From the NCBI RefSeq assembly GCF_009914755.1, contig NC_060946.1: 64,000 bases of DNA. The stretch is one strand, 5' to 3'. This stretch comes from the human T2T-CHM13v2.0 reference genome, Homo sapiens. Shown one piece after another: positions 1 through 42,600 of this stretch. Each line of letters begins with the position of its first letter. Position 1 is the stretch's first letter. A program made the position numbers and the translations under genes. The notes beneath the pieces were generated by a model that was not told the DNA's origin, did not search any database, and was given only the letters and a program-made list of their open reading frames with translations.

Positions 1-425
1 TTTGTTTAGCATGATTTCTTCTTGTTTAATTACCTTGTCATCTAGGGAGTTCTCAGCTACTTTTTAAAAATATCCTCTTTATTATTTTTCTCCTATACTG
101 TTTTTCTAAGACTCCTTTTATAAATACAGTGGTCCACTTGGTGGTGTGCTGTAAGTCCCAATTTTCATTTTTTCTCTATTCTGTTTAAAAAATTTGTTTT
201 CATGAATCAGTATTTATAAGTGCAATGTTATCAACTGTCTAATTTTTTCTGCTTTATTAAATCCACTTTTGTGACTGCTGATTAAATTTTTAATATAGTT
301 ACTGTGTTCTTCAGAGTCACAATTTTTCTTGGTTTTTAAAAATCTTTTTATTGATATCTCGTTTTCTTCATGCATCACTTCTAATATTCTTTTGTTGTCT
401 ATGTTCTGTTTTTGTTCATTAAGCA
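1..425 (-). mobile_element. Old, degenerate L1 (L1M-type) fragment
   Basis: T-rich sequence with antisense-L1-like texture and no ORF; resemblance only. Confidence 0.35.
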
Positions 426-6806: not shown

Positions 6807-12390
<5,584 letters not shown>

Positions 12391-23036: not shown

Positions 23037-26000
23037 GTTGTGCTCATTTTTGAGGATAACTTTTATTGTCACCAGAGTGTGCATGAGTGTTAGAATCTCA
23101 CCTGTTTGCTGGGCCCTGTTAGGACACTATGTACCTCCTATGGGCTTTGTAGAGTATGCATTAAACATAATACACTCTGAGGTCTTCATGCTGATATGAA
23201 CCTATGATCATACCTGTGGCCATAAGCCCAGGTATGAGAGTCAACATCTCTCCAGCTGGCTGGATCCAGATAAGAGGATCTTTACTTGGCTGTAAACTGG
23301 GTTCAGAAATAAGTCACTATCCCAACTGTGACTGGATGTTCACATGTGATAGTTACAATTCCCGCTGTGGACGGCACTCAGGTATGAGATTTAGACCTCC
23401 CTAATCACCTCTGTTCCTGTGTAGGAATGACAATTCTGATGATTGGTGGGTGTGCACACAGAGAACACAATCTCACCTGTGTTCTGGGCCCTGTGATGAC
23501 ACTGTACCATCTGAGTGCTTTACAGGATATGCAAGAGTGCTTATTTTCTCTGACCTTCATAGTAAGAGAAGACCCATAATTTTGCACATTTTGTAAAGCC
23601 TGGATATGAGACAAAGTATCTCTCCTATTGGTTGGTTTAAGGTATGAATGTCATCATCACACCTACATGCTAGGCCAAAATATATGTGACAATCTCACAT
23701 TTGAGTAGTCAGCAAGCAGGAGGGTCTCATCACCTGGGTCATTGTCAGGGATATGTCACATTCTCCCCTGAGGACAGGGACAAGGCAAGAAAGTCACATC
23801 CCTAGGTATTCTGCCAGGGATATGTTCTTGTTCCCTCCTGAAAGCATGACACATGCAGCAGAGTCACCTCACCTGGGTTCTGGGTCCAGCGATATGTCAC
23901 AATTTTCCCTGTGAGCAAGGCACAGGCAGGAGAAACACATCACCTGTTTGCTGGGCCCAGAAATATGCTACAGTTTTTCTTGTGAGCAGGGCTCAGGCAG
24001 AAATGGGGGAATCACATTTTCTAGGTGATAAATGCAGAGCTATGTCACAAGGTCCCCTGTAGTCAGGGCCTTGGCAGAAGATTCCTATTGTCTAGGCGAT
24101 TGGCCCAGTGATACAACACAATAGCTAAATTATGCAGGGCCCAAGGCAAAGAGGAGAGTTGCATCACCTAAGTGATGAACAAAAAGATATGTCATAATAC
24201 CCAGGTGGAAATGGGCCATGCAGGTAAGTCACATTACCTAGGTGTTGGACCCAGTGATATGTCACAATACACAATATATGCAGGGCCCAGCCAAGAGGGG
24301 AGAGTCAAATCACCCAGGTGCTGGGCCCGATGATACATTGTAATCTGTCTTTGGTCAGAGCCCTAGCAGTAGAAGAAACTCACATCACCTCCATGCTGAG
24401 GTCAGCCATATGTCACAATAACCCTGAGAAATGAGCCCAGGAAAAGAGTCACATCATTTAAGTGAGAGGCCCATAGATATTTTCAATTCCTCCTGTGGGT
24501 AGTCCTCAGTAAAAAGACAGTCACATTAGTTAGAGTCTGTCCCCAGCGATGTGTAAGAATCCCAGCTGTGAACAGGCACCAGACAGGACAAGAGAGTCCC
24601 ATCACCTGGGTGAACAGTGCACAGATATGTCACAATGACCCCATGTAGGTAAAGTCTAGACAAGAGTTACATCACCTGGGTGTTGGACCCAGCAATATGT
24701 CACAATGGCTCATGTGGGCAAAGCACAGGACACAGTCATATAACAAAGTGCCAGGACCAGTGTTAGGTCAGGATACCCTTTATGGGCAGTGCCAAGACAG
24801 GAGATTAGAAGCATATTAATTAGATGCTGGATTCAAGGATATATCACAATCTCATCTGTGGGCTACACCCAGGCAAAAAAGTCAAATCACTCAGGAGCTG
24901 GCTAGAGGTGTACGTCAGAATCACACCTGCAGGAAGGTCCATGGATGAGATTAATAATCCCTCATAAGTGCCAGTTCTGGATATGAGAGTGAACGCCTCC
25001 TGTATGTTGCATCTATGTGCATAAGTCACAATCTCAATGGAGGAATGGGTTTTTTCCATGAGAGCCTTAATCCCTTTTGAAAACTGAGTTATCTTAGTGG
25101 ACTCACAGCCTCACAATGTTTTGGATCTTGGTCAGGGAGTCACAAACCCACTTAAGGACAACATCCACTTATTAGAGCCAATTTTCCAACTTTTGACTGC
25201 CTCTGGGTGTGAGTTTCAGAACCTCATTTATGTTCCATGTTCGTGTGGGAGAAACAATTTTGACAGATGGCTGGGCTCAGGCAGGAGCATTTCATCCTGC
25301 AGGTGTTGAGACAAAGGATATGATACAACACCTAAAATATGCTGGGTGCAGGCAAAAGAGGAGACTCATATTAGCTGGTTGCTAGGTCCAGTTATATGTC
25401 ACCGCTTCCATTTTTGGCAGGGCTAAGGAAAAAGAGGAGAGTCAGAGCTAAAGAAATGTCATAATGTCCCTGTGGGTAGGGCCTATGCATGAGAGTTGCA
25501 ACACCTAGTCATTGAACCCAGCTATATATTATAATACACAATGTATACAAGGCCCAGGCAAGAAAGGAGAGTATATCACATAGGTACTGGGTCCAGCAAT
25601 ATGTCACCATACCCCCTGAGTGGAGGCTCCAGGCAACAGGGTAACATTACCTAAGTGAAGTGCCCAGAGAGATGTTTCAATGCCCCTGGTGGGTAGGATT
25701 TTGAAAAAAGAGAAGTTACAGAACCTAGGGGCTAGGCCTAGGTATGTGTGACATTCATCTCCAAGACGGAGCCCAGACATGAGAGAAATGTCACATGATG
25801 TAGGGCATGTAATATGTCACAATCCTTATGTGAGCAGGCCCTAGGAAGAAGTAGAGAGTCACATAGTCTAGATGATGGGCCCAGAGGCATTTGACAATGA
25901 CTCCTGTATGTAGGGACCAGGCAGAAGAATCACATCACCCCTGTGCTGTTCCCAGTTATAAGTCACACTTCCTTCTGTGGGCATGACCCAGGCAGAGAGA

Positions 26001-27801
26001 ATTCACATCATCCCAGTGCTAGACCCAGGGATATGTCACAATCTCTCTTATGGGCAATGCTCAGGTAAGAGAGGAGAGTTGCATCAAATAGATGATGGAC
26101 CCAGAGGTATGTCACCATGCCTTCTGTGAACTCGATCCAGGCAGAAGATTCACATCATCAACTTGGTGCTAAGCCCAGCAACGTGTCACAATCCCTTCTG
26201 TGTAAAGGGACCAGGCAGGAGAAGAGAATCACATTACCAGGCTGATGAGCACAGAGATATGTCACAATGCCCCTGTAAGGCACGGCCCAGGCAGTTGGGT
26301 TACATCGCCTGAGTAGTGGACCCAGCAATATAACACAGTGTCCCATATGGGCAGTGCACAAGCCGGAGAGTCACATAACCTGGATGTGAGGCCAAGCTAT
26401 ATATAACAACGCTTCCTGAGGGCAGCGCCAAGGCAGAAGAGGAGACTCACATCTCCGGGTGCAAGGCCTAGCGATATGTCAAAATGCTCACTGTGGGCAG
26501 TGCCAAGGAAGGAGAATAGAGTTACACCCTCAATGTGCTGGATCCATCAATATGTTAATATCCCATCTGTGGGCTGGGTCCATGTGAGACCATCAATTCA
26601 CTCAGGTGCTAGGCACCGGCAAATTTCACCATGAAAGCTGCAGAATGGTCCAGGAATTAGATTAACAATCCCACAACTGTCTCAGTTGTAGGCATGACAT
26701 TCAACACCTCCTGTATGTTGGGTCTAAGCTCACGAATAACCCTCTCAACACCAGACTGGATTTGTGCATGAGAGTCTCAATTCCTCTGCAGAATGACCTG
26801 TGTTCCTGTGAGAGGATGACAATAGTTACTGTTGGCTGGGTGTGCATATGAGTGTCACAATCTCACCTGTGTGCTCGGCCCAGTTAGTACACAATCTCAC
26901 AGCTCTGTGTACTACCCAATGGCCCTATACACTATGCATGAGAGTCGTAATCAACTTTGAGACCTTCCTAATGGTAGGGACCCATGATCGTACTTGTAGC
27001 ATTAAGCCCGGTATGAGAGTCAACATCATTACAATTAACTAGGTCAGGATAGGAGAGTCCTCCCTTGCCTATGAGCTGAGTTTAGATGTGGGCCACCATT
27101 TCAACTCTGGTTGAATGTTTATATATGAACACGGGCCTCACACCGAGGTGATGTGAGTCTTTGGCCTAGACACTTCAAGCAGAAGGCAAAGTGACATATC
27201 TCTGGGTATATCAACTATTTGATGTGACCTTCCTTTTTTACCTGAGCTTTCCCCATAAAAGAGATGTGACATATGTCTAGACCAAGCACCTGGGTGATGT
27301 GACTCTCCTTTATTGACTGAGCCCTGTGTATTTTGGGTATTCTGACGTATCCCTGGACCTAACTTCTGGAAGATAAGAAGATCCAACATGGGCCCTGCCT
27401 AAAAAGTTTCTTGTGACAAATTTCTACATGAATCACCTTGGAGATTTGACTCTCCTGTCTTACCCGAGTTTTGCCCATAAGAGAGATTGTTACTTAACTC
27501 TGCAGCAAGCACCTAAATGCTGTGGCTCTTCTTTCTTGCCTGGGTCATGCCCAGAGATGAAAGAGTGGCTTATCGCTGTGTCCAGCACACCGGTTATGTG
27601 ATTATGCTGCCTGATCTCTGCTCACAGGAGCCATTGTGACATATCCCTGGGCCCAGAAACTATTTAACACGACTATCTTCAATGACCTTAACTTGGTGCC
27701 TGGGATAAGTTGTGACATATCTCTGGATCCAGCACCTAGGTGATGCGACTCTCCTTTTCTGCATGGGCTATGCTTACAAGAAGGAGGCTGACTTATTGCT
27801 G

Positions 27802-28720: not shown

Positions 28721-30662
28721 ATTTCCCCCTAAGAGATTTTAGGGCAATAATCATATTGGAGGTTGAGGGGTTAGGCCATTATTTCTGGAGCTGTTTCCTG
28801 CTGAGTGGGTGTTACTTCTGCCTAGCCTGGGCCTTAAAGTTTCTTCCTGTGTGATCTAACAGGGTGTAAACCATGTCGTTCGTGGAACCAGTGGGAAGAT
28901 GTTGGCAACCAAAGGTTGAAAGCCTTGCAAAACCATCATGCAAACATGGAGTTGCCGTAAGCAAGAGAGCAAGAAATCAGTTAACATTTTAAACAAAATT
29001 GGAACAAAACTAAAAGCTGAAAATATAATAATGACGGGTACTATTAAAGAGAGCAAGGCAGGCAATGGACATCGCTTTCATGTTCCCATGGAAGTTCCTA
29101 GAGATTCAATTTTGTCTGCCTGGGTGATGATATTATTAATATTTTCTTCGACTAAACCAGACTGATTGATCTCAAAAACAGCATTCTTCTTTTAGATATA
29201 AACATGTTCCTCTTTGCTTGGCTGGGAGAAGATCCCAGGCTCTTTGGTTTTGTCGGACTACAGTGGCCATGGAGTCCAGACGTTGTTGAAGTCTATTGAG
29301 ACCCTCTGCTGCTCGTTGGGGACACACTGAGATTTTCCGAGATAGTTTCTATTGGATTCCCGAGGCTCCACCTTATGGTGACATTTGTGCTGCAAAGGAA
29401 TTCTGCATTGAAATGGTGAAAGCAGCAAAAGTTTTAAGTCTTTTCTATTTTTTGCCAATAAGCAAAAGTTTTCTGCAGCTACGTGGTCAGCAGTCATTGG
29501 GTCCATTTATGGATGGTGAAGTTGAATGGCGGTCAAAGTTAGAGCCTGGAAGGCTTCAGTAAATGCGCTGAAGTTCTTTGGGAGCCAACAGAGCTGTTGC
29601 TTGCATTGGATTAGATCATTTATTGAGAAGAGAACAAGCACTCTGATGGTCCTCTCTCCATTTGGGACTTTCTGTAAGGGGATCAAATTCTCTGGCCCTG
29701 CATGGTGTGAAGTTCCACCGCGAGTAACTACAGCTGGGCTGGTCACTATTGTACCTGGCAAAGGCTGATAGAGAGGAGCATAAGGAGGAGGTGAAACAAG
29801 CTTAGATTCTGCAGAAGACTCGGATAGTGTGGGGATGCTGCGGATTCTACAGGAGGTGTAGGCCCCTGAGGGTCCCTATCTGGAGCTGGTGAGCCCCTCG
29901 AGACCCCATTAACTGAAGCTCTAGGAGGTCATAGGCATTTGCCATACACCGTCTTATCTCTCACCAGCGCTGCACATCTCCAGCCCTGCCGAGATGACCC
30001 CCACTGCTGGCTGGGGGACAGATGTCTGGCTGACAAGCCTTTCCCTAATTTACTGGTTCGCAATTTATGATGCCGAATTATAACACCTGCAATGCTCAGA
30101 TTCAAACCCCACGACCGGGCATCTACATGACTTTGAATCGTTTGTTCAGCAAAGAAAACCTGTTGAAGAACAATTTCAAGGAGGTGGGAAATGCATAAAG
30201 CCTGAAGGGACAGGGTTCTCTTAATATTCCACTCAAAACAAAACAAGACAAAACTGTAAACAGAAAACCCGATCAGAAAATAAAGTACAATAGCCACTAG
30301 GTGGCGATCGAGTATTGCCGAAGGGACAGCAAACGATAAGCTGAGTCTGAAGTGTGGCCAGAAAGATGTGAAACTAAGCAGCAAACTAGCCCGAATATGA
30401 AATGTTGAGAGCAACCCATGCGGTGAGTGTCTTTTATGGATAGTACAGATGCAGCAGCCAAAAGGAGAGCAGACATATATTCTCTCTCTAGAGAATATAG
30501 GTGATTTAAACACGTTTCCCCCAGAACTTTAGTGAAACAGCGCTGGAACAACCAGCGATAGTTAACCAGGTAGTCTGGAAGTGCCATAGTATTCACTGCA
30601 AGAAAAGGGAAACTGAAATTAATGAAGCAGACAAACCTCTCTCCGGGCCATGGCAAAAGAAA
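28721..30662 (-). mobile_element. ERV1 (class I) internal region with gag and env remnants; pol deleted
   Basis: gag: PPPY late domain (29780-29791) and capsid N-terminus PLQKV..RVLVLFSINDLIQCKQQL..FTEAFQALT (29507-29761). env TM: ISD-like VRQNQRAWDLL plus CX6CC (CLYLKEECC) at ~29175-29268, and a membrane anchor at 28856-29065. A weak His-like PBS lies at 30641-30658 (12/18). Confidence 0.88.
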
Positions 30663-31148
30663 TGTTGATGGCTGATGTAATACCTTGGTTCTTATCTTCT
30701 TAGCTTAAAAGAATTTAAACAGGAAACATGCAGCAAAAGAAGTACAGCATAGAGTAATTTATTGCACACAAAAAAAGAAAAGAATACGTTGAAAATCAAG
30801 TGCAGAATAGACGGTACAGTCTGAGAAAGAGATTCCAGGGCAGCCTGCTCATAAGAGTGAGACAGCATTAATTGTTGCTGGAGAAACCCTCCTTCTGGGA
30901 GTTTTACATGATTATTCATAAGAAGGTGGAAAGAAGTGTTATAGAAGGCATGCTTTGAGTGGTCTTCTGGGTGCACATGTGCAGTAGCTGTACATATTTT
31001 TGCATATGTTGCATGTCTCATTAGCATGCAATGACATTTCACCCAGGAATGTGTTTTTACTTGTTAAAATGAGCAAAGGTTCAGCTTGAAGACAGATAAA
31101 ATCAAAATGCACATGCTCTCTAGACGTAAAAGTCCCTACTGAAGATAG
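30663..31148 (-). mobile_element. 5' LTR of the same ERV1 provirus, truncated at its U3 end
   Basis: tgttgatggctgatgtaataccttgg aligns to tgttgacaactgatgtgatacctctg at 27802. Homology stops at ~31148, about 120 bp short of the other copy's end. Confidence 0.82.
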
Positions 31149-33234
31149 TGGGTTTCAAACGACCCCAAGTGCTCCACAACTTAAAAGTCGCTCCCACGAA
31201 CCTGGAACACTATCTGTTCCTGAGGGATCAGGTCCCATTTGTGTCTCTGAGACACTGGCAAGTGAGGCACGACTTGGGATGAGACCGATGATTTTAATTG
31301 TAAAATGCCTAAATAGTCAGCAGCTTCAGGTTACATTTTGGAGCTTGTCCACTTAAATGGGTTGATGAAAATGGCTCACAAAACTCACGCCTTGGAAAGC
31401 GGGTTTTCTCCCTTGCTCTTAGATTTTCTGCAACCCATTAAACTAACTTCCTGATGCCTCGACTTTCACATTCGTGAAAAAGGCGCCATTGAGAGTGACG
31501 TTTCCAGGAAGGCTCAGCCCTTGTCAGCCCCTGCAGAGCTCTGAAGCTGTTCACAAGCAGGCCATGTGGAAGATTTCTCTCAAAAGCCATTGAGCACGCG
31601 CTCTGGCTAGAGAAAAAAGAGGGCTGCTGCACAATGGACAGTGTCTCAGACATCAGGACAGTTTCCACAGTAGTTTAGGAAAGAAGGCAGTGCCCTGAGC
31701 TGCAGAAGGTGCAATGCTCTGGAAGGAACCCTGGGTGCAGCTGAAAGAGGAACCTGAGAAGCATAGGGCCAATCGGGTGAGGATAACCCGCCTGATTTGG
31801 GCAAAGGTAAGGTGCCTACATAGGGTAATACCCTCCTCAATGCTCAGCCAAGACCTGTCCTCCAGGTCCACCTCTGTACTCACTCTCTGTGGCAAAGAGT
31901 CGGCATAGCATAAGAACTCAGCAATGCTTTGGACACTGGGAAGTCCACACCGCTCTGTCCCTCCCTCCAGGGCTATGCACCCCGGATCCCGGTATATGCT
32001 GAGATTATGGTTCTGAAGCCCACCGACAAATAGGCTGAGAGCAGTTAACGGACTACAGCTCCAAGCATATTAGGTGGGGCATGTACAACTTTGCCCCTTC
32101 TTCCAGGGCTATGCCTTACCCCAGAGACTGGCGCATGCTGGGATTGTAGTCCTGTAGCCATTTGACCAAAGGGCTGGGAGTGTTTATGAGAATACAACTC
32201 CCAGCAATCCTAGGGAGGAGCACACAGCCCCGCCTCTTCCCCTAGTGATACGCATTGTCCCTGAGACAGGTGCATGCTAAGATTGTAGTCCTGAAGCTCT
32301 GCGACCAAAGGGCTGGGAGTGTTTATGAGCATATATCTCCCAGCAAGCCTAGGAAGACGCACACAGCCCCGCCTCTTTTTCCACTGACGCGGACTGTCCC
32401 TGACCCCAGTGCATACTGGGATGGTAGTCCTGCATCCCTGTGATGAAAGTTCTGGGAGTCTCTATGAAACTACCTCTCCCAGGAAGCAGAAGGAGGGGTC
32501 CACAGCCTAGCCTTTTCCTCCAGTAATGCGCACTGTCCCTGAGCCGGGTGCATGCTGGGATTGTAGTCCTGCAGCCCGGTGATGAAAGGTCTGGGAGTGT
32601 TTATGAGACTACATCTCCTACCAAGCCCAGGAGGTGCACACAACCCTGCCTCTTTCTCCAGTGACGCCAACTTTCCCTGTTCCCGGTGCATGCTAGGATT
32701 GTAGCGCTGCAGCCCTGTGACAAAAGGGCTGTGAGTGTTTATGAGACTGCATCTTCCACCAAGCCCAGAGAGGCGTGCAGAGCCTCGCCCCTTCCTCCAC
32801 TGATTAGCGCATGCTCCCTCAGTCCCATGCATGCTAGGATTGTAGTGCTGCAACCCTGTGACCAAAGGGCAGCCCAGTGACCAAAGGGCTAAGAGTGTGT
32901 GAGAATACATCTCCGAAAAAGCATAGCGAGAAGAGCACAGGTCCACTTCTTCCTCCACTGAGGCGCGCTCTCCCTGAGCACGGTGCATGCTGGGATTGTA
33001 GTCCTGAAGCCCTGTGACAAAAGGGCTGGGAGAAATAATGAGACTACATCTCCCAGAAAGCCCAGCGAGACGCATGTACCCCTTTCTCTTCCTCCATTGA
33101 GGCGAACTGTCCCGGTGCCCCGTGCATGCTGGAATTGTAGTCCTACAGCTATGTGATGAAAGGACTGGGATTGGTTATCAGAATGCATCTCCCAGCAAGC
33201 CCAGCGAGGCACGCACAGCTCCACGTCTTCCTCC

Positions 33235-33238
<4 letters not shown>

Positions 33239-33277
<39 letters not shown>
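33239..33277. repeat. (CA)n microsatellite inside one satellite monomer
   Basis: About 19 perfect CA/AC units. Confidence 0.97.
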
Positions 33278-33279
<2 letters not shown>

Positions 33280-34818
33280 CCCTGAACTCGCTGCATGCTG
33301 GGATTGTAGTCCTGCAGCCCTGTGACCAAAGGGCCAAGAGTGTTTATGAGACTACATCTCCCAGAAAACGTAGGGAGACGCACACAGCCCCACATCTTTT
33401 CCCAGTGACGCATGCTGTTTTTGATCCTGATGCATTCTGGGATTGGAGTCCTGCAGTCCCGTGACAAAAGGTCTCAGAGTCTTTATGAAACTACATTTCC
33501 TAGCAAGTGCAGCGAGGTGCACACAACCTTCCCCTCATTCTCCAGTGATGTAGACTGTCCGTGAGCCCCAAGCATGCTGGGATTGTAGTCTTATAGCACC
33601 GTGACCAAAGGACAGGGAGAGGCCATGAGACTACAACTCTCAGGAAACCCAGCAAGGCGCACACTGCCCGGCCTCTTTCTCCTTAGACTAGCGCACTGTC
33701 ACTGAGCTGGGTGCATACTAGGAATGTATTCCTGCAGCCCTGTGAGCAAAGAGCTGGGAGTGTTTATGAGAATACATCTCCCAGTACTCCCAGGAGGTGC
33801 ACACAGCCCTGCCTCTTCCTGCAGTGACTAGCGCACTGTCCCTGAGCTGGGTGCATGCTGGGATTGCAGTCCTTGGCGATCTATGACCAAAGGGCTAGGA
33901 GTGTTAATGAGACTACATCTCCCAAAAAAGCAGAGTGAGAAGCGCACAGCCCTCCCTCTTCCTCCAGTGACGTGTGCTGTCCCTGAGCCCAGTGCATGCT
34001 GGGGCTGGAAGTGTAGTCCTTCAGCCCTGTGACGATAGGGCTGCGAGGATTTATGAGAATACATCTCCCAGCAAGCCCAGCGAGTAACAAACAACCCCGC
34101 CTCTTCCTCCAGTGACGCGCAATTTCCTTGAGCCCGGTGCTGGCTGGGAGTGTAGTCCTGCAGCCCTGTGACCAAAGGTTTGGGAGTATTTATGAGAATA
34201 CATATCCCACCAAGCCCAGCGAGACGTGTACAATCCCTCCTCATCCTCCAGTAACGCGCACTATCCTTGATCTTGGTGCATACTGGGATTGTAGTTCTGC
34301 GGCCCTGTAATGAAAGGTCTGGTGACTTTATGAAACTACATCTCCCAGCAAGCCAAAGGAGGCACACAAAGCTTTGCCTCTTCATCCAGGCACACGCACT
34401 ATCCCTGATCCCGGTGCATGATGGAAATGTAGTCCTTCAGCCCTGTGACCAAAGTGCTGGGAGTGTTTATGAGACCGCATCTCTCAGCAACTAAAGCAAG
34501 GCCTGCACAGCCCCGCCTTTTCCTCCAATGACGCTCACTGTTCACTAAGGAGTGTTCATGAGATTACATTTTCCAGCAAGCCCAGCGAGTTATGCACAGC
34601 TCTACCTCTTCTTCTAGCGACGCGCACTGTCCCTGATTCCGTTGTATGCTGGGATTGTGGTGCTGCAGCCCTGTGACAAAGGGGCTGGGAGTCTTTATAA
34701 GACTACATCTCCCAGCAAGCCCAAGAGGCTCTCACAGCCATGCACCACCCCCTCCCGCCCCACTTTTCCTTCAGTGACGCGCACTGTTCCCTGAACATGG
34801 TGCATACTGGAATTCTCC

Positions 34819-35441
34819 TGTTGCGGGATTCAGGAGGACGAGACAGACCTCAGGTTGAAACAGGAGAATCTTTATTGAGTGCACTCAGGACCAGCTGACT
34901 CACGTCAAAAAGACCGGGCCCGGAACACAGACAACACCTGACTTTTATACACACTTCACAAAAGGGGGTGGGCTAGCTTGAAGCGAGCTTACAGTGGCGT
35001 GAAAGCAGGAATACAGAGGCAGGACAAAGACAGGATTGCACATGACCGTTGCCAAGCAACCCACATGTCCATTATCTAGGTTTCCCTGGGCATGGGCTTA
35101 TCCTATAACCCTCACTATGGTTCCCAAACAGCTGTAGTTCAGCCTACTCAGGCTTCTCATGACTTTCATTGTACTTCTTCGATAAAACACAATACTTGAA
35201 GTCACTAGTTACAGAGAACAAGAATCTATAAACTCATTCCATAAAACAAAGGGAATTTGTTTTTCTTTTCCCTGTGTTGGGGGAGTGTTGGGAGAACCTC
35301 CAGAGCACATTACATAATATTATCAAGAATTTTCCTGGGTCTGGGCTGTGCCTATTGCTGCCTCTGGGACAAATCAGCCTAATACAAGAAAACTTATTTC
35401 TCTTTCCTTTTAATTTCATTTTTCTTTAATTTCCTTCCTTA
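34819..35441 (-). mobile_element. Solo LTR (ERV1-type)
   Basis: Begins tgttgcgg and carries antisense AATAAA (~34871) and TATAAAA (~34943). It is flanked by an imperfect 4-bp TSD ctcc/gtcc, and the satellite register continues across it. Confidence 0.75.
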
Positions 35442-35479
35442 GTCCTGCAGCCCTGTGACCAAAGGACTGGGAGTGCACA

Positions 35480-38400
35480 GTTACACATCTGTTCACTTGT
35501 CATGAGACTGTTTTCCTTTAACCCCATGAACATACTTACCATAGCTTCTTTCAAATCTTACCTACCGATTACAGCATCTTGCACATCTTGAGAATAGGTT
35601 CTATTGTCTGCTTTTTATCTTGTGAATCGATTACATTTTCATCCTTCTTCAAGCATCTCATAAATTTTTAAATTGTGTGATAGGAATTACAGGGACTCTG
35701 GCTTCTGTTGTATTTCTTTGAAAATTATTATTTTATGAGGGAGTTAATTTGAATAGATGCAAACCCCAATCCTTATCTCTTCTACAGTGGCAATACTAAA
35801 ATCTTCATTCAGTTCTTCTAAACAGTGTGCGTTTCTATATAGCAAAATATAGTATTTTATTAAACTTTATTATAGTATATGTGAAACAGTTATTGAACAA
35901 TCTACTCTACTTCATTATTACTGGAAGCCAGAACCTCAGTTGTGTTCACTTTCTGGATTTTATATAAGTGAAATTGTACAACATGTATACTTTTACATCT
36001 ACTTTCTTCTATGCAACTTTATATTTATGATATTAATTCATCCTATTGCAGATAGCTATAGTTTGTTTATTTAAAAAATATTTTTTATATTGTGGCAAAG
36101 TATACATAAAATTAACCATTTTAGCTATTTTAAGTGTGCAGCTCAGAAAAATTAACTACACTCACATTGTTTTGCAACTATTATTCTCATTCATAGGGAC
36201 CTTCTTTCAACTTCCAAAACCAAAATTTAATGCACATTAAATAACAGCTCCCTGTTACTCCCCCTCCAGCTCCTAGGAACCACTCTTCTACTTGGATTTC
36301 TAGAATTTAACTACTCTAAGTATCTCATAAGTGGAATGATACAGTATTTGTCCTTTTATGACTGGCTTATGTCACTTTGCACAATGTCCTTAAGGTTCAT
36401 GCATAACGTACCATGTGTCAGAATTTTCTTATTTTACATAACTGAATAACGTTCCAATATATGTATAAATCACATTTTATTTATTTATTCATTGATGATA
36501 ATTCAAACAACACGGGTAATTCACAAACCTTTTGGGTGATGTGAGTAATGCTGCCATGAGCCTAGGTGTACGTGTATTATTTTGTGTCTTTGCTTTCACA
36601 TCTTTTGCTACATACCCAGATGTGAAATTGTGGGATCATATGGTGACTTTTGGTGTACATTTTTTAGTTATTATACTGTTATTTTATAGCAGCTGCAACA
36701 TTTTACATTTCCAACAACAGTGTACAAGGGTTCTAATTGCTCCACGTCCTCACCAACACTTGTGATTTTCTGTTTTGTTTTGTTTCTTTTGGTAGTAACT
36801 ATGCTGACGTGTATTAAGTGATATATCATTTGGAGTTATATTTGCATTTTACTAATGATTAGTTTTGTTGAGCACCTTTTCATGGACTTATTAGCCATTT
36901 CACATAATTTTTAAAGAAATGTCTAAGTATTTTGCCCATATTTTAAACAAGTATTTTGTTTTATTATTGCTGAATTGTTCTTTGTATATTCTGGATAGAG
37001 TCCTCTTTATTTTTCTTTTGTTTCTTGCATTTTTTGTGTCCTGTTAAAAAAAATCACTGCGAAATCCAGCGTTATGACATGTTTTACCTACATTTTATAC
37101 TAAGAATTTTGTAGTTTTAGCTCTTACATTTAGGTTTTTGTCGAGTTAGTTAATTTTTTCTTATGGTATAAGTTAAGGGAACAGTTTCACTCTTTTACAT
37201 GTAGGTACCCAATTTCCCCAGCACTAACTGTTGTAAAGGCAGTTCATTTCCCATAAAAATCATTTGACCATATATATGAGGGTTTATTTATATTGGCTTT
37301 CTATATTACTCCATTAGTCTATTTGTAGCATGCTATTTTGGAATTTTGTAGTAAGTTTTGAAATCATTAAGTGTGACTTCTCTAACTTTGGTATTTTTTT
37401 TTCAAAATTATTTTTGCAATTTAGGGTCCCTTGAGATTCCTCATAAACTTAAAAATTGATTTTTTAATATCTACACAAAATAATTGGCATTTTGCTTCTT
37501 GGTTACTTCCTAATTTTATTCTTTTGATGCTATTGTAAATTGAGTTGTTTTCATAATTTTCTTCTCAGATCATTCGTATTACTACATAAAATACAGTTTA
37601 TTTTTCTATGTTGATTTTGTATGCTACTACTCTGCTGAATTTATTAATTTTAATATTTTTTGTGTGGAATCTTTAAGATTTTCTACATAAAAGAATATAT
37701 TTTCTGTACACACTTTGATGAAGTTTATTTCATTGTCTTTTTTAATTTCTCTGAATGAAACTTCTAATACAGTGTTGAATAAAAGTGGCTGGCAAGAGCA
37801 GACATTCTGTCTTCTGAGCTTAGACGAAATAATTTTGGTCTTTTCCTCTAGAACATGTAGTTTGCTGTGGGTTTTTATACGTGAATTTTACAAAGATGGT
37901 TTTCTTTTATTCGTAATTTATTGTTTTTATTATAAAATATTTTGAATTTTGTAAAATACATTTTCTGTATTAATGAGATAATGTTTTCTAAAAATTTTGT
38001 TAATGTGTCATATGCATTGATTATTTTTCATATGCTAAAACTTTTGTTAAGAAAGGCTAGCTAAGTGAACCAGTGAGACTGGAAAAAGAATAAAGAAATC
38101 TATTCTGGTTGTGATCAATTAGTTGTAAACACCATTGCACTGAAACCAGCCATACGCTAAATCTTCCTTACATTCCAGTAATAAATTCCCCTTGGTCATG
38201 GGGTGTAATCTTGCTAGTATGCTGCTGAATGTGGTTAGCTAGGATGTTGCTGAGTAGTTTTGCATCCGTGTTCATAAGGGATATTAGTCTATGGGTTTTT
38301 GTAGTCTCTTTGTCTGGCTTTGGTATGAGCTAATGCTGGCATCATGGAATAAGTTTGGAACTGCTCTCTTCAGGCTTTTGGTAGATTTTGGAAAGGATTT

Positions 38401-39610: not shown

Positions 39611-42600
39611 TAACCCTGAATTGCTGTGGAAAGCTAACAGTAGCATTACTTAATTTAAAAAGCACAGAAATCTTAAATCAATAGCTTAATGTTTGTAAAA
39701 GCATTTAAATGGAAATAAGCTACCAGTTCACCAGGAACAAAGGATATCAGTTGGGTCTAAGAATAATCATGCCAAAAAGCTCTAGGAGGAAAAGCTCCTG
39801 GGAATTAGGACTGTGATAATGGTCTTTGAGATCAACAAAGAAATGGGGAAATGGGGATGCTCAGGGTCAGGTACATGCTTAGCAAAAGACCCAGAAAACC
39901 CTAAGCTGTCACCTGTGTACTTTAAACTCTGCACAAGTAGAAAATAGAGGCACAAGGAGAGTTGTAACTTTATGCTGATTAGTAAAGGCATGCTCCAACA
40001 CACATACATAGATCCCAGGTGAAAAAAAATCAGATATTTATTTTTAGTGAAGGTTAAAAAATCTGGAGTCTTACTTTCCAATTAAGGATTAGTGAAAATA
40101 TTTGGGGAGATTTGCATTGATCAGTTCATCCTGAGGTCAAGAAAATCTTGATTTTAAAATTTGGAGCCTCCAGTAAAGGATTAGCTTCCACCTAGAGGTG
40201 TTCTTTGGCCTTTTGGACTCAGAGCTATCTTGACACTACTACTGGTTACACTGATTTGAAAGTCAGCTAAGAGCTTGCTACAGAACTCCTGACAAACTAA
40301 GTTTGACCTATAGAGGGCTAGGGCATCCCCAGCTGGTTGAAATTTTGTGCCTCCTTCTATCCTCTGAAGCAAAGCTGCTGTCTCTGTGGGGCCCCCAATT
40401 TACTGAGTGTTTCCTATATGACTGGTCCTGGTTCATAGATGAGTCAGGGAAGGTGAAACCTCATGATGTCCACTGGGCCGCTGTGGCTGTTTAACCTGTG
40501 CCAGCCATACAGAACCTGACATGAGTGGTTGCTCCTCTCAAAGGTCAGAACTCAGGGTTTGGGATAATGGCACATATTCTATCTGTTTGGTTATCTACAA
40601 TGGAAAGTGTAGACTGTCTGAATATCGTTTGGGCTGCAAACCGGAAACAACCCCAGATGCTGATCTAACTGGGTCACTCATCTAGAAGTCCATGGTAAGT
40701 GTTTTCCAGAGAGTGACCACAATCAAGCTGCAGATTGAACCTAAATCTGTGTCCAACCCAGAGTCTAATACTGCAAACCAGACTTGGGGTTGCTGGTGAA
40801 AGTTGACCTATCTGTCTCATGGTTGAAGAATTCCTAGACCATACCTAGCAGAGTAACCAGAAGTGGACTTTTAGCCCACTTCTTGAGATATCAGTCACCA
40901 CTGTTGACTTCTTCAGCATAACAGTCATCTGACTCCAGCCATACCATGTGTCCCTTGAAGCTAATCTGTGCCACCTTTTAGGCTTTTGAGGCCAATTGAG
41001 CTCTGACTTCGTGGCATTTTTCACCACACCGACTAAAATGGGCCAACTCTACGATGTTCCCTCCTTTTCCACACATGTTGGTTAGATAATTCGTTGATTA
41101 GGTATGCTTTTCTCTGAAAGGGGATTATCTCTTCCAGATTGCCTCCAAGATAAGGATGAAATGTTTGGGGGATCTAGGAATCTATTTCACAAATTTGGAA
41201 TTTCGTGCTAATAATTCCTGGGTGAAATGTCTTTCTTTCCCATACCTGCAATTCTAGACCAGCCTGGCTTTTGTATCCTCTGAGTTGCATCCCAGCCTAG
41301 CAGCAGTTATGGGACTCCAACTTAGTTCTGGTTAAGTTTTATGTAAATATTCTTGTATCTGTTTTACCTGGCTCTACTACACAAAATGTCTAGAAAAAAG
41401 TAAAGGGCGACTAGAATAAAGGTGAGATTATAGATATCGGAATGAGACACACTGATTCTGTGGAGATAGAGGGAGAACAACAACCTGGAACGTGGGAAAT
41501 GAACAACTTAGACCTCGGAAGCTACGGGGAATGGTGGGACATTAACAACTTTTTTTCTTTCTGAATAACCCCTGGTGCAGCCCACAAAAGAGTCTGGAAA
41601 TACTATTAGAACAGACGGTAAGACAGAGTCTGTGGATTCAGCTCCTTTTGGTCTCCACGTTACTCTTAAGAATCCTTTGAGACTATTCTATCTCTCTGTG
41701 ATGTAGGCATGGAACTCTAGTGGGCAGTGTGCACTCTCGGTGCCCATGGTTCAACGCCACAGTTTTTCAGATGATGGACAACCATTGCTTTTTCCTGAAG
41801 AGACTTAGTACCCTGTGGCTGAGCTTAAGCGGGACTCTAGGAATTACTGATTGCATTTTCTTCTTCTTCTGTGAACTGCGATTTCTCCTTCTGTTTTTCT
41901 ACTACCTAGAGATTAATCTGTATTTGTCAATATTTAGGTAAATCAGAGACATAAAGCAGATAAGGAACCCTAGACACAGCTTCTAGCATAGCTGGACTCT
42001 TGCCTGTTTCTCTTCCCACTTTATGAGATCAATTATATTGGCACAGAGAGATAGCCTTAGATGGGTCTCTCAGGATCAATTAGAGAAGCATACTTCTAGA
42101 GAAGCTGGTAGAACAGGGCAGGAGGGCCAGTGAGGATCAAAGCTTCTATCCAAATGTTTTAGCCTAGCTGTGTGTGGCAGACGAATCCAGGAAAGCTCCC
42201 AGATCCCTGGAAGGGATTATTAAGAGAGGATCCATTAGATTAGAATGCTAGGTTGGGTGTTCATCTATCACCTTCTGAGTCAGATTTCCAGGGTTAAGTC
42301 TGTGGTAGGGCTGCAGAGAAATGCTCGCCTGGGAAAGCCTCTGATCAAGTGCAACATAGGTGACTCCCGCACAGGGAGAAGTCCTCTATTTGAGGAACAT
42401 CATATGTGTTTGGATGTATCTGTGCTCTTCCTCAGCAGAGGACCATTGACTGAATGACTGTTTGACAATTACGCATAAAGAGCCCTATATTATTTTGAAT
42501 TTAGTAAATATTGGAACAGAAACAAACAATATTATCTACTTTCAAATTGAATAACAGCATGAGCAACTTCCAGGTAAATGTCACAGGAGGAAACTCTGGG

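What the first reader, a model, noticed from the sequence alone, without database searches (positions are those of the whole stretch)
31950..34815. Satellite built from paired, oppositely oriented ZNF143/THAP11-type promoter motifs (up to ~40 sites)
Seen: most 139-bp monomers contain GCATGCTGGGATTGTAGTC (reverse complement GACTACAATCCCAGCATGC) and, ~40 bp later, GACTACATCTCCCAGCAAGC, followed by a GC-box-like ccccgcctc. Established: ACTAYRnnnCCCR / ACTACAnnTCCCAGnATGC is the ZNF143 (Staf SBS) and THAP11-HCFC1 motif typical of CpG-island and bidirectional promoters, including KRAB-ZNF promoters. The plus-strand copy fits this consensus exactly; the minus-strand copy has a spacer one base shorter. 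Inference: the array is an amplified promoter module that could act as a methylation-gated (germline or tumour) promoter for lncRNAs, or as a ZNF143 sink.
Basis: partly seen in the sequence, partly recalled or inferred. Interest (0 to 1): 0.7.

Follow-up and report, generated by a model that had tools for sequence, protein, structure and literature searches.

The report
ACRO138 satellite with ZNF143-type motifs
This is the distal ACRO138 tandem repeat next to the ribosomal DNA on chromosome 22, a known promoter-like satellite whose 139-base units each carry two decaying, oppositely oriented ZNF143/THAP11-type binding motifs.

Summary
The array is real: about 20.5 units of 139 bp at 31969-34814. 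Its last unit is split by a 625-bp dispersed repeat and resumes at 35440-35475. It is the distal ACRO138 block of the rDNA distal junction (DJ). Floutsakou et al. 2013 described ACRO138 and reported open, promoter-like chromatin over the blocks, and transcription of the proximal block. Copies 99% identical lie on chr13, 14, 15 and 21. An inverted partner at 85% identity lies about 158 kb away.

Each consensus unit holds two diverging full-length SBS2-type motifs. Motif B has canonical spacing. Motif A is 1 bp short between ACTACA and TCCCA. Intact copies are far fewer than "~40": 5 exact THAP11-type sites, 7 exact short-spacer sites and 16 exact TCCCAGNANGC cores.

Older paralogues with 2-6 units sit in CpG islands on chr7, on chr19 and in the DJ itself, and they keep the canonical motif B. 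The large DJ blocks are CpG-depleted (o/e 0.36). Their motifs diverge about as fast as the flanks.

The best reading is an amplified, decaying CpG-island promoter module whose remaining sites may explain the published open chromatin. My searches found no paper linking ZNF143 or THAP11 to ACRO138. Binding was not tested here.

The parts
31969..34814 (+). Main body of the distal ACRO138 array, about 20.5 units of 139 bp
   Evidence: TRF period 139. nhmmer hits with the unit profile. Register alignment of 21 segments.
31969..32107 (+). Diverged first unit. The same diverged unit opens every short paralogous array.
   Evidence: nhmmer 31981-32106, model positions 13-138, 55 bits. The same 13-138 hit at 54-61 bits stands at the outer (first-unit) end of the arrays in L020-L028.
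32850..32889 (+). 19-bp internal duplication inside unit 7
   Evidence: TRF period 19, 2.1 copies. The unit is split into two nhmmer hits.
33239..33277 (+). (AC)19.5 microsatellite between units 9 and 10
   Evidence: TRF. Sequence read directly.
34549..34617 (+). Half unit (model positions 70-138). Motif A is deleted.
   Evidence: nhmmer.
34777..34814 (+). 5' part of the last unit (model positions 2-38), cut inside motif A
   Evidence: nhmmer. Sequence read directly.
34815..35439 (.). Insertion of a dispersed repeat of about 620 bp that looks like a solo LTR. It is shared by the distal and proximal blocks.
   Evidence: 47 scored matches on many chromosomes. Those outside the DJ are at 80-91% identity, mostly over query positions 4-625. 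192 first-look candidates. The repeat is present in both DJ blocks.
35440..35475 (+). Continuation of the last unit (model positions 40-75). This is the true right end of the array.
   Evidence: nhmmer E 1.7e-8. Sequence read directly.
33043..33055 (+). Exact M4/TBS site ACTACATCTCCCA (motif B)
33351..33363 (+). Exact M4/TBS site (motif B)
33912..33924 (+). Exact M4/TBS site (motif B)
34335..34347 (+). Exact M4/TBS site (motif B)
34702..34714 (+). Exact M4/TBS site (motif B)
32139..32150 (-). Motif A with the 1-bp-short spacer, ACTACAATCCCA
32556..32567 (-). Motif A, short spacer
32991..33002 (-). Motif A, short spacer
33299..33310 (-). Motif A, short spacer
33578..33589 (-). Motif A, short spacer
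34145..34156 (-). Motif A, short spacer (ACTACACTCCCA)
34284..34295 (-). Motif A, short spacer
29894..31968 (+). Left flank of the duplicon that carries the array. It is shared with the paralogues on chr3, 4, 10, 14, 20, 21 and 22 and, from 31150, with chr19.
   Evidence: blastn of the loci against the window, 85-88% identity for the short-array loci and 76.7% for chr19.
35865..37245 (+). Right flank of the same duplicon. In the short paralogues it is joined directly to a truncated array.
   Evidence: blastn, 87-89% identity.

Best explanation
The array is the distal ACRO138 block of the rDNA distal junction, about 297 kb from the rDNA. It arose by tandem amplification, from about 2-6 units to about 20, of a 139-bp unit taken from a CpG-island promoter-type element. 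That unit carried two diverging SBS2-type sites for ZNF143 and for THAP11-HCFC1. The amplification happened before the DJ inverted duplication.

Since then the large blocks have drifted close to neutrally. They have lost CpGs, changed a key T to A in motif B, and turned ACTACA into AATACA in several units. About 15-17 intact ZNF143-type cores per block remain. I infer that these remaining sites recruit ZNF143-family factors and so account for the open, H3K4me3-marked, weakly transcribed (eRNA-like) chromatin published for ACRO138.

What is shown: the identity of the array, its anatomy, its paralogy, the CpG decay and the lack of constraint. What is inferred: factor binding, and that binding causes the open chromatin.
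For: Identity:
- The period is 139 bp.
- Blocks 99% identical lie on chr13, 14, 15 and 21, and inverted blocks at 85% identity lie about 158 kb away.
- On chr13 the first 5.8S gene is at 5,780,910, which puts the two blocks roughly 140 kb and 298 kb from the rDNA. The published positions are 138 kb and 290-297 kb (PMC3847771, passages).

Motifs:
- Motif A consensus (reverse complement) matches the high-affinity SBS2 probe of PMC3627581 at 21 of 24 aligned positions, with one base missing in the spacer. That includes 9 of 10 in the 3' half.
- Motif B consensus matches the probe at 18 of 25 positions without an indel.
- The core TCCCAGNANGC occurs 16 times in the array and 0 times in the other 61 kb of the window.
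- PMC3627581 reports a higher ChIP score with more SBS2 motifs.

Origin:
- The chr7, chr19 and third-DJ copies are CpG islands, and in the chr7 and chr19 copies motif B reads ...CAGCATGC (T in 20 of 22).
- CpG o/e falls from 0.66-0.84 in the chr7 copies to 0.36-0.42 in the large DJ blocks.
- Flank homology shows that whole duplicons moved, not just units.

Timing: the distal and proximal arrays align unit by unit.

Published function: open chromatin, promoter marks and transcripts (PMC3847771; PMC4973289).
Against: - No binding or transcription data could be examined here.
- The array is not a CpG island (GC 0.536, o/e 0.36), and the supplied gene table lists no transcript start or RefSeq functional element in it.
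- There is no purifying selection beyond the neutral rate. Non-CpG divergence between the distal and proximal blocks is 5.7% for A, 8.5% for B, 9.6% for the rest of the unit and 6.5% for the flanks. Against the chr4 and chr3 paralogues, both motifs diverge as much as the rest of the unit or more.
- Motif A has the wrong ACTACA spacing for THAP11/HCFC1 recruitment. The spacing is said to matter in Vinckevicius 2015, which I saw only through the review PMC7154149.
- Motif B has A where the older copies have T.
- Only 2 of 19 units keep both motifs exact at the specified positions, and 6 of 19 keep both with at most 1 mismatch each.
- The 2013 chromatin maps predate T2T and were mapped to a consensus DJ, so individual blocks were not resolved.
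- The chr22 rDNA array is silent in CHM13 (PMC12802695).
Confidence: 0.55

Rival explanations
1. The motifs are an inert relic. They are fossils of the ancestral promoter and no longer bind anything useful. The published open chromatin over ACRO138 comes from other factors, from GC-rich repeat properties, or from reads shared among the family's copies.
For: Motif divergence is equal to or above the flank rate. CpG has decayed to o/e 0.36. ACTACA has become AATACA in several units, and motif B has T to A at a core position. Only 5 + 7 exact sites remain. No annotated start lies in the array (supplied gene table).
Against: 16 exact cores remain in 2.8 kb, against 0 in the other 61 kb of the window. 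Motif A is the best-kept stretch of the unit, ranking 3 of 137 sliding windows, and has the lowest substitution rate between the distal and proximal blocks. Promoter-type marks and transcripts are published for ACRO138.
Confidence: 0.3
2. The unit comes from a transposable element rather than a gene promoter. It would derive from an SBS2-bearing retroelement such as MLT1J, so the promoter-like features are inherited from an LTR.
For: PMC3627581 reports that ZNF143-bound MLT1J elements carry SBS2 and proposes MLT1J as a source of SBS2 sites.
Against: The exact motif-A 18-mer is almost private to this family. It occurs 67 times genome-wide, nearly all inside family copies. Paralogues share long unique flanks, as segmental duplicons do, and do not show element-sized boundaries. 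No repeat library was available to test this directly.
Confidence: 0.1
3. The blocks work mainly by titrating ZNF143, or by recruiting repressive THAP11-HCFC1, rather than as promoters or enhancers.
For: There are many clustered sites. THAP11 is described as mainly repressive at SBS2 (PMC3627581).
Against: About 159 exact cores in the ten large blocks is small beside the 3122 promoter binding events reported. Only 5 exact THAP11-type sites exist per block in this window. Motif A has the wrong spacing. The published marks are active ones.
Confidence: 0.05

Closest known systems
ACRO138 repeat of the rDNA distal junction (Floutsakou et al. 2013, PMC3847771; McStay 2016, PMC4973289)
   Same: A tandem unit of about 138 bp. 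Two blocks per DJ, in the two arms of the inverted repeat. Present on all five acrocentric chromosomes. The positions relative to the rDNA agree.
   Different: Nothing differs in identity. The passages I read do not mention the ZNF143/THAP11 motif pair, the third diverged CpG-rich block, or the chr7/chr19 and subtelomeric paralogues. The published consensus (Supplemental Fig. 10) could not be read.
SBS2 / M4 promoter elements bound by ZNF143, ZNF76 and THAP11-HCFC1 (Ngondo-Mbongo et al. 2013, PMC3627581; M4 = ACTAYRNNNCCCR, listing abstract of PMC5006282)
   Same: A 25-bp architecture of ACTACA, then TCCCA, then a GC-rich 3' half. Several motifs per element. GC-rich context.
   Different: Here the element is amplified about 20-fold in a CpG-depleted satellite with no annotated start. 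One of the two motifs has a spacer 1 bp short, a form almost private to this family. Occupancy is untested.
ACRO1 / ACRO composite satellite of acrocentric short arms
   Same: Specific to acrocentric short arms, distal to the rDNA, and transcribed (preprint 10.64898/2025.12.22.696095, passages).
   Different: ACRO is a 6-kb composite (ACRO1 + L1PA10 + MER21B + L1MB8) forming arrays of up to a few hundred kb. This is a 139-bp unit in blocks of about 3 kb. No sequence comparison was run.
Tandem SBS2 cluster at chr11:64,260,902-64,261,311 (found here)
   Same: Six exact ACTACAGATCCCAGCATGC sites in tandem, 61-91 bp apart. This is another amplified SBS2 module.
   Different: Canonical spacing, a shorter period, all sites in one orientation, and a single locus. 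Not examined further.

Membership tests
ACRO138 satellite (DJ) | Tandem repeat with a period of about 138 bp | tested here: met
   Period 139. Profile length 139.
ACRO138 satellite (DJ) | Two blocks in the DJ at about 138 kb and 290-297 kb from the rDNA, on all five acrocentric chromosomes | tested here: met
   Ten blocks on chr13, 14, 15, 21 and 22, in pairs about 158 kb apart and inverted. On chr13 they lie roughly 140 kb and 298 kb from the first rDNA unit, judged from the first 5.8S gene at 5,780,910.
ACRO138 satellite (DJ) | Sequence identity to the published ACRO138 consensus (Supplemental Fig. 10) | not testable with these tools
   The supplement is not held.
ACRO138 satellite (DJ) | Open chromatin, H3K4me3 and transcripts | not testable with these tools
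   Literature only.
SBS2 / THAP11 binding site | ACTACANNTCCCA with a 2-nt spacer | tested here: inconclusive
   Met by the motif B consensus, exactly by 5 copies and with at most 1 mismatch by 14 copies on the plus strand (20 motif-B copies were found). Not met by motif A, whose spacer is 1 nt in every copy.
SBS1 / ZNF143 binding site | 18-bp site with TCCCA and a 3' half of the ATGCACCGCG type | tested here: met
   At consensus level, A matches the published probe at 14 of 18 positions, with 9 of 10 in the 3' half. B matches at 7 of 10 in the 3' half. No weight matrix was available.
SBS1 / ZNF143 binding site | Occupancy by ZNF143 in cells | not testable with these tools
   No ChIP data can be reached. 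The 2013 DJ study mapped histone marks and CTCF only.
CpG-island promoter | GC above 0.5 with CpG o/e above 0.6, and a transcript start | tested here: not met
   The window array has GC 0.536 and o/e 0.36, with no annotated start in the supplied table. The composition test is met by the chr7 paralogues (o/e 0.66-0.84) and by the third DJ block (0.65).
KRAB-ZNF gene promoter | Lies at the 5' end of a KRAB-ZNF gene | tested here: inconclusive
   chr19: no KRAB exon within 10 kb either side. The only KRAB gene in the next 30 kb is on the opposite strand, with its zinc-finger exon nearest the copy. chr7: KRAB exons lie about 30 kb downstream on the same strand for two closely related copies. Only 150 of 693 KRAB candidates were scored.

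The most novel reading that the evidence does not exclude
The ACRO138 blocks, together with the third CpG-rich block nearer the rDNA, are multivalent landing pads for ZNF143/ZNF76 and, at motif B, for THAP11-HCFC1. They set the evenly spaced promoter-like open-chromatin sites of the distal junction. Methylation of the CpG inside the 3' half of each motif switches them with the activity state of the linked nucleolar organiser. This would give the DJ's role in nucleolar organisation a concrete transcription-factor handle.
Probability: 0.2. Interest if true: 0.7.

Novelty: already known. Interest (0 to 1): 0.38.

Why it matters
The DJ is the only conserved, largely unique sequence linked to every human nucleolar organiser. 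How it contributes to nucleolar organisation is still open. ACRO138 is one of its few promoter-like sites, and the passages I read name no factor for it.

Three results turn a descriptive feature into one that can be tested with public ChIP-seq remapped to T2T. First, the unit is a pair of ZNF143-type sites. Second, the family descends from short CpG-island copies on chr7, on chr19 and in the DJ itself. Third, a diverged CpG-rich block sits about 43-44 kb nearer the rDNA than the proximal block.

On present evidence the large blocks evolve nearly neutrally. The safest view is that this is a known satellite whose origin is now clearer, not a new regulatory system.

Tried and rejected
- Coding clue in the flanks: Pfam on 20 of the stop-to-stop ORFs of at least 60 aa that lie outside the array between 28900 and 43105 gave no family.
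- Structured RNA origin: Rfam over 29000-38000 gave no match.
- Unit as an inverted duplication: the best self-inverted alignment is a 22-bp imperfect palindrome at about columns 47-68, scoring 24 against a shuffle mean of 18.3 (sd 4.2, maximum 40). This is not significant, so the two motifs are not halves of a larger palindrome.
- CTCF site in the unit: a consensus recalled from memory gives no hit in the array at 1 mismatch or fewer, and one hit at 30294-30308.
- KRAB-ZNF promoter origin: not established.
- FRG2 association of the 4q35, 10q26, 3p12 and 20q11 copies: this is only a recollection and was not tested. No Pfam family was found in the window's homologous segment.
Only chr19 and one chr7 copy were extended.
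- Vinckevicius 2015 is not held.
- The Floutsakou supplements are not held.
- A script error was corrected, and an off-by-one motif slice was corrected.
Full report
OBSERVATION

The region holds a tandem array with a 139-bp period. TRF reports two runs, 32133-33236 and 33274-34541, at 71-72% matches, separated by an (AC)n tract. I built a profile from 16 clean units. It finds 17 near-full units, a diverged first unit (31981-32106), a unit with a 19-bp internal duplication, a half unit (34549-34617) and a terminal piece (34777-34814, model positions 2-38). It also finds a detached piece at 35440-35475 (model positions 40-75).

The 625 bp between the last two pieces is a dispersed repeat of about 620 bp. 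It occurs on many chromosomes at 80-91% identity (47 scored matches, 192 first-look candidates) and is shared by both DJ blocks. The last unit is therefore split by an old LTR-like insertion, and the array really ends at 35475.

MOTIFS

The consensus unit carries motif A at columns 26-44 (minus strand) and motif B at columns 84-102 (plus strand). Their ACTACA ends face each other across 39 bp, so the two motifs point away from each other.

I compared them with the probes of Ngondo-Mbongo et al. 2013 (PMC3627581, passages read). Those are SBS1 TTCCCATTATGCACCGCG, SBS2 ACTACAATTCCCATTATGCACCGCG, and the THAP11 site ACTACANNTCCCA.
- Motif A, read as its reverse complement, matches the probe at 21 of 24 aligned positions, including 9 of 10 in the 3' half. 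It lacks one base between ACTACA and TCCCA.
- Motif B matches at 18 of 25 positions with no indel, and fits the THAP11 site exactly.

Counts in the array:
- THAP11 site: 5 exact, 14 with at most 1 mismatch, all on the plus strand.
- 1-bp-short form: 7 exact, 15 with at most 1 mismatch, all on the minus strand.

At the specified positions both motifs are exact in 2 of 19 units, and both have at most 1 mismatch in 6 of 19. The aligned count for A includes one unit with a 6-bp insert.

CCCCGCCTC occurs in only 3 units. "Up to ~40 sites" therefore holds only for degenerate matches.

IDENTITY

A 416-bp piece of the array finds blocks 99% identical on chr13, 14, 15 and 21. It finds inverted blocks at 85% identity about 158 kb away on each of the five chromosomes. 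On chr13 the first 5.8S gene lies at 5,780,910. That places the two blocks roughly 140 kb and 298 kb from the rDNA.

Floutsakou et al. 2013 (PMC3847771, passages) describe two blocks of a novel 138-bp repeat, ACRO138, in the DJ. They report open-chromatin and promoter-signature peaks centred at 138 kb and 290 kb, transcription of the 138-kb block, and "another putative promoter" in the block centred at 297 kb. [quoted passage not shown]

The window's array is therefore the distal ACRO138 block. It is not ACRO1, which belongs to a 6-kb composite satellite (preprint 10.64898/2025.12.22.696095, passages).

FAMILY AND ORIGIN

The genome search and profile scans show three further classes of copies.

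(i) Short arrays of 3-6.5 units. They lie at chr20:31.07 Mb, chr4:193.42 Mb, chr10:134.60 Mb, chr3:75.69 Mb, chr14:4.35 Mb, chr21:2.57 Mb, and chr22:4.31, 6.17 and 9.35 Mb. All begin with the same diverged first unit. All sit in a duplicon homologous to window 29894-32443/32867 joined to window 35865-37245.

(ii) Older copies of 2-3.3 units at chr19:19.914 Mb and at seven pericentromeric chr7 sites. The exact-18-mer scan adds two more chr7 sites. The chr19 locus also shares window 31150-31968 and 40943-42542.

(iii) A third block inside the DJ, at chr22:4,699,380-4,700,140, with 5-6 diverged units. Exact-18-mer equivalents lie on chr13, 15 and 21. It is about 43-44 kb nearer the rDNA than the proximal block. 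I note, without having tested it, that Floutsakou et al. describe promoter signatures at intervals of about 45 kb.

In the 27 fragments from chr7 and chr19, the motif A consensus is identical to the DJ consensus. Motif B reads ACTACAaCTCCCAGCATGC, with T at column 100 in 20 of 22 fragments where the DJ has A.

The old consensus has CpG at several places where the DJ consensus has TG or CA. CpG o/e over the repeat runs as follows:

| Copies | CpG o/e |
|---|---|
| chr7 | 0.66-0.84 |
| Third DJ block | 0.65 |
| chr19 | 0.54 |
| Short arrays | 0.36-0.49 |
| Ten large DJ blocks | 0.36-0.42 |

The chr19 copy and one chr7 copy are local CpG-island peaks. I read this as descent from a short tandem CpG-island element of promoter type, followed by expansion and CpG decay in the DJ lineage.

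The distal and proximal arrays align unit by unit, at 0.82-0.94 identity apart from the (AC)n tract, with whole-unit indels. The expansion to about 20 units therefore came before the DJ inverted duplication.

The exact motif-A 18-mer is almost private to this family, with 67 genome-wide hits. The canonical-spacing form, ACTACANNTCCCAGCATGC, occurs 47 times. It is scattered across chromosomes, except for a six-site tandem cluster on chr11 and one close pair on chr1.

CONSTRAINT

Within the array, motif A is the best-kept stretch. Mean column identity is 0.90, rank 3 of 137 sliding windows. Motif B scores 0.86 (rank 31) and the rest of the unit 0.815.

Between the distal and proximal blocks, substitutions are 21/355 in A, 35/361 in B and 206/1806 elsewhere. 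Fisher's test gives p=0.0017 for A against the rest. B is not significant.

Non-CpG divergence of the window's array from each paralogue:

| Comparison | A | B | Rest of unit | Flanks |
|---|---|---|---|---|
| Proximal DJ block | 5.7% | 8.5% | 9.6% | 6.5% |
| chr20 | 6.9% | 10.5% | 12.7% | 11.2% |
| chr4 | 12.8% | 18.4% | 14.6% | 10.5% |
| chr3 | 14.7% | 19.3% | 13.5% | 9.1% |

In the distal-proximal comparison, A against the flanks gives p=0.64 and A against the rest gives p=0.018.

In the old CpG-island copies, identity to the DJ consensus is 0.90 for A, 0.79 for B and 0.73 for the rest. This hints at constraint there. The fragments were found by similarity, though, so the comparison is biased.

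KRAB-ZNF LINK

The old copies lie within KZNF clusters, since KRAB exons are listed nearby on chr7 (only 150 of 693 candidates were scored).

For two closely related plus-strand chr7 copies, a KRAB exon lies about 30 kb downstream on the same strand.

On chr19 there is no KRAB motif within 10 kb either side. The only KRAB gene in the next 30 kb is on the opposite strand, with its zinc-finger exon nearest the repeat.

The promoter's owner is therefore unknown.

MECHANISM

My preferred reading, at about 0.55, is this. The block is a decaying, amplified promoter module. Its remaining 15-17 ZNF143-type cores per block recruit ZNF143-family factors, which gives the published open, H3K4me3-marked and weakly transcribed state.

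Support comes from the report that ChIP score rises with the number of SBS2 motifs (PMC3627581). [quoted passage not shown] The main rival, at about 0.3, is that the motifs are inert fossils. An LTR origin (about 0.1) and a sink or repressor role (about 0.05) are less likely.

NOVELTY AND LITERATURE

The satellite, its promoter-like chromatin and its transcription are in print. I found no paper linking ZNF143 or THAP11 to it. The searches were:
- "ACRO138": 6 papers, 5 listed. I read passages from three and saw the other two only in the listing. The passages read do not name these factors.
- ZNF143 + "distal junction": 0 papers.
- ZNF143 + acrocentric: 7 papers. Passages of one were read and the rest seen as listings. 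None was relevant.
- ZNF143 + tandem repeat + T2T: 3 papers.
- ZNF143 + "nucleolar organizer": 5 papers. One maps ZNF143 ChIP to the rDNA only.
- ZNF143 + satellite + tandem + motif + array: 4 papers.
- THAP11 with acrocentric or DJ terms: none of the 15 listed papers holds THAP11.

The library lacks most subscription journals. The supplements of the 2013 paper, including its ACRO138 consensus figure, could not be read. Prior mention therefore cannot be excluded.

LIMITS

- No ChIP, CAGE or methylation data were available.
- No weight matrix or repeat library was available.
- No other primate genome was available.
- The CTCF consensus and the FRG2 association are recalled from memory, not taken from a tool.

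Noticed in passing
chr22:4,699,380-4,700,140 (locus L041 480-1240); exact 18-mer equivalents at chr13:5,676,453, chr15:2,412,519 and chr21:3,014,227: A third, diverged ACRO138-like block of 5-6 units inside the DJ. It is CpG-rich (GC 0.59, o/e 0.65) and lies about 43-44 kb nearer the rDNA than the proximal block. It may match one of the published promoter-like peaks spaced about 45 kb apart.
   Followed up: partly
chr11:64,260,902-64,261,311 (G000:C11): Six exact ACTACAGATCCCAGCATGC sites in tandem, 61-91 bp apart. This is another amplified SBS2-type array, with canonical spacing.
   Followed up: no
window 7896-10420: A 215-bp tandem repeat (11.5 copies, 76% matches) that contains the first exon (8039-8104) of the predicted lncRNA LOC124908459. 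This would be a second satellite in the window that may act as a promoter.
   Followed up: no
window 30294-30308 (+): CCACTAGGTGGCGAT, one mismatch from a CTCF consensus recalled from memory. It lies 1.7 kb left of the array, inside the shared duplicon.
   Followed up: no
window 34815-35439: A dispersed repeat of about 620 bp (solo-LTR-like) inserted inside motif A of the last unit. It is present in both DJ blocks. In the proximal block it is itself interrupted by about 400 bp.
   Followed up: partly
chr19:19,932,766-19,944,756 (loci L042-L044), minus strand: A KRAB-ZNF gene (KRAB-A exon plus at least 6 zinc-finger linkers) about 18 kb from the chr19 ACRO138-like copy, with its 3' end facing the copy.
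   Followed up: partly
window 23843-24000, 25917-26056, 26365-26515: Three short tandem duplications with periods of 71-75 bp and similar consensus sequences (TRF).
   Followed up: no
chr22 distal block compared with the chr13, 14, 15 and 21 distal blocks: The chr22 distal block spans 2847 bp, against 3058-3127 bp on the other four chromosomes, so it is about 1.5-2 units shorter. In CHM13, chr22 carries the silent rDNA array (PMC12802695). No causal link is implied.
   Followed up: no
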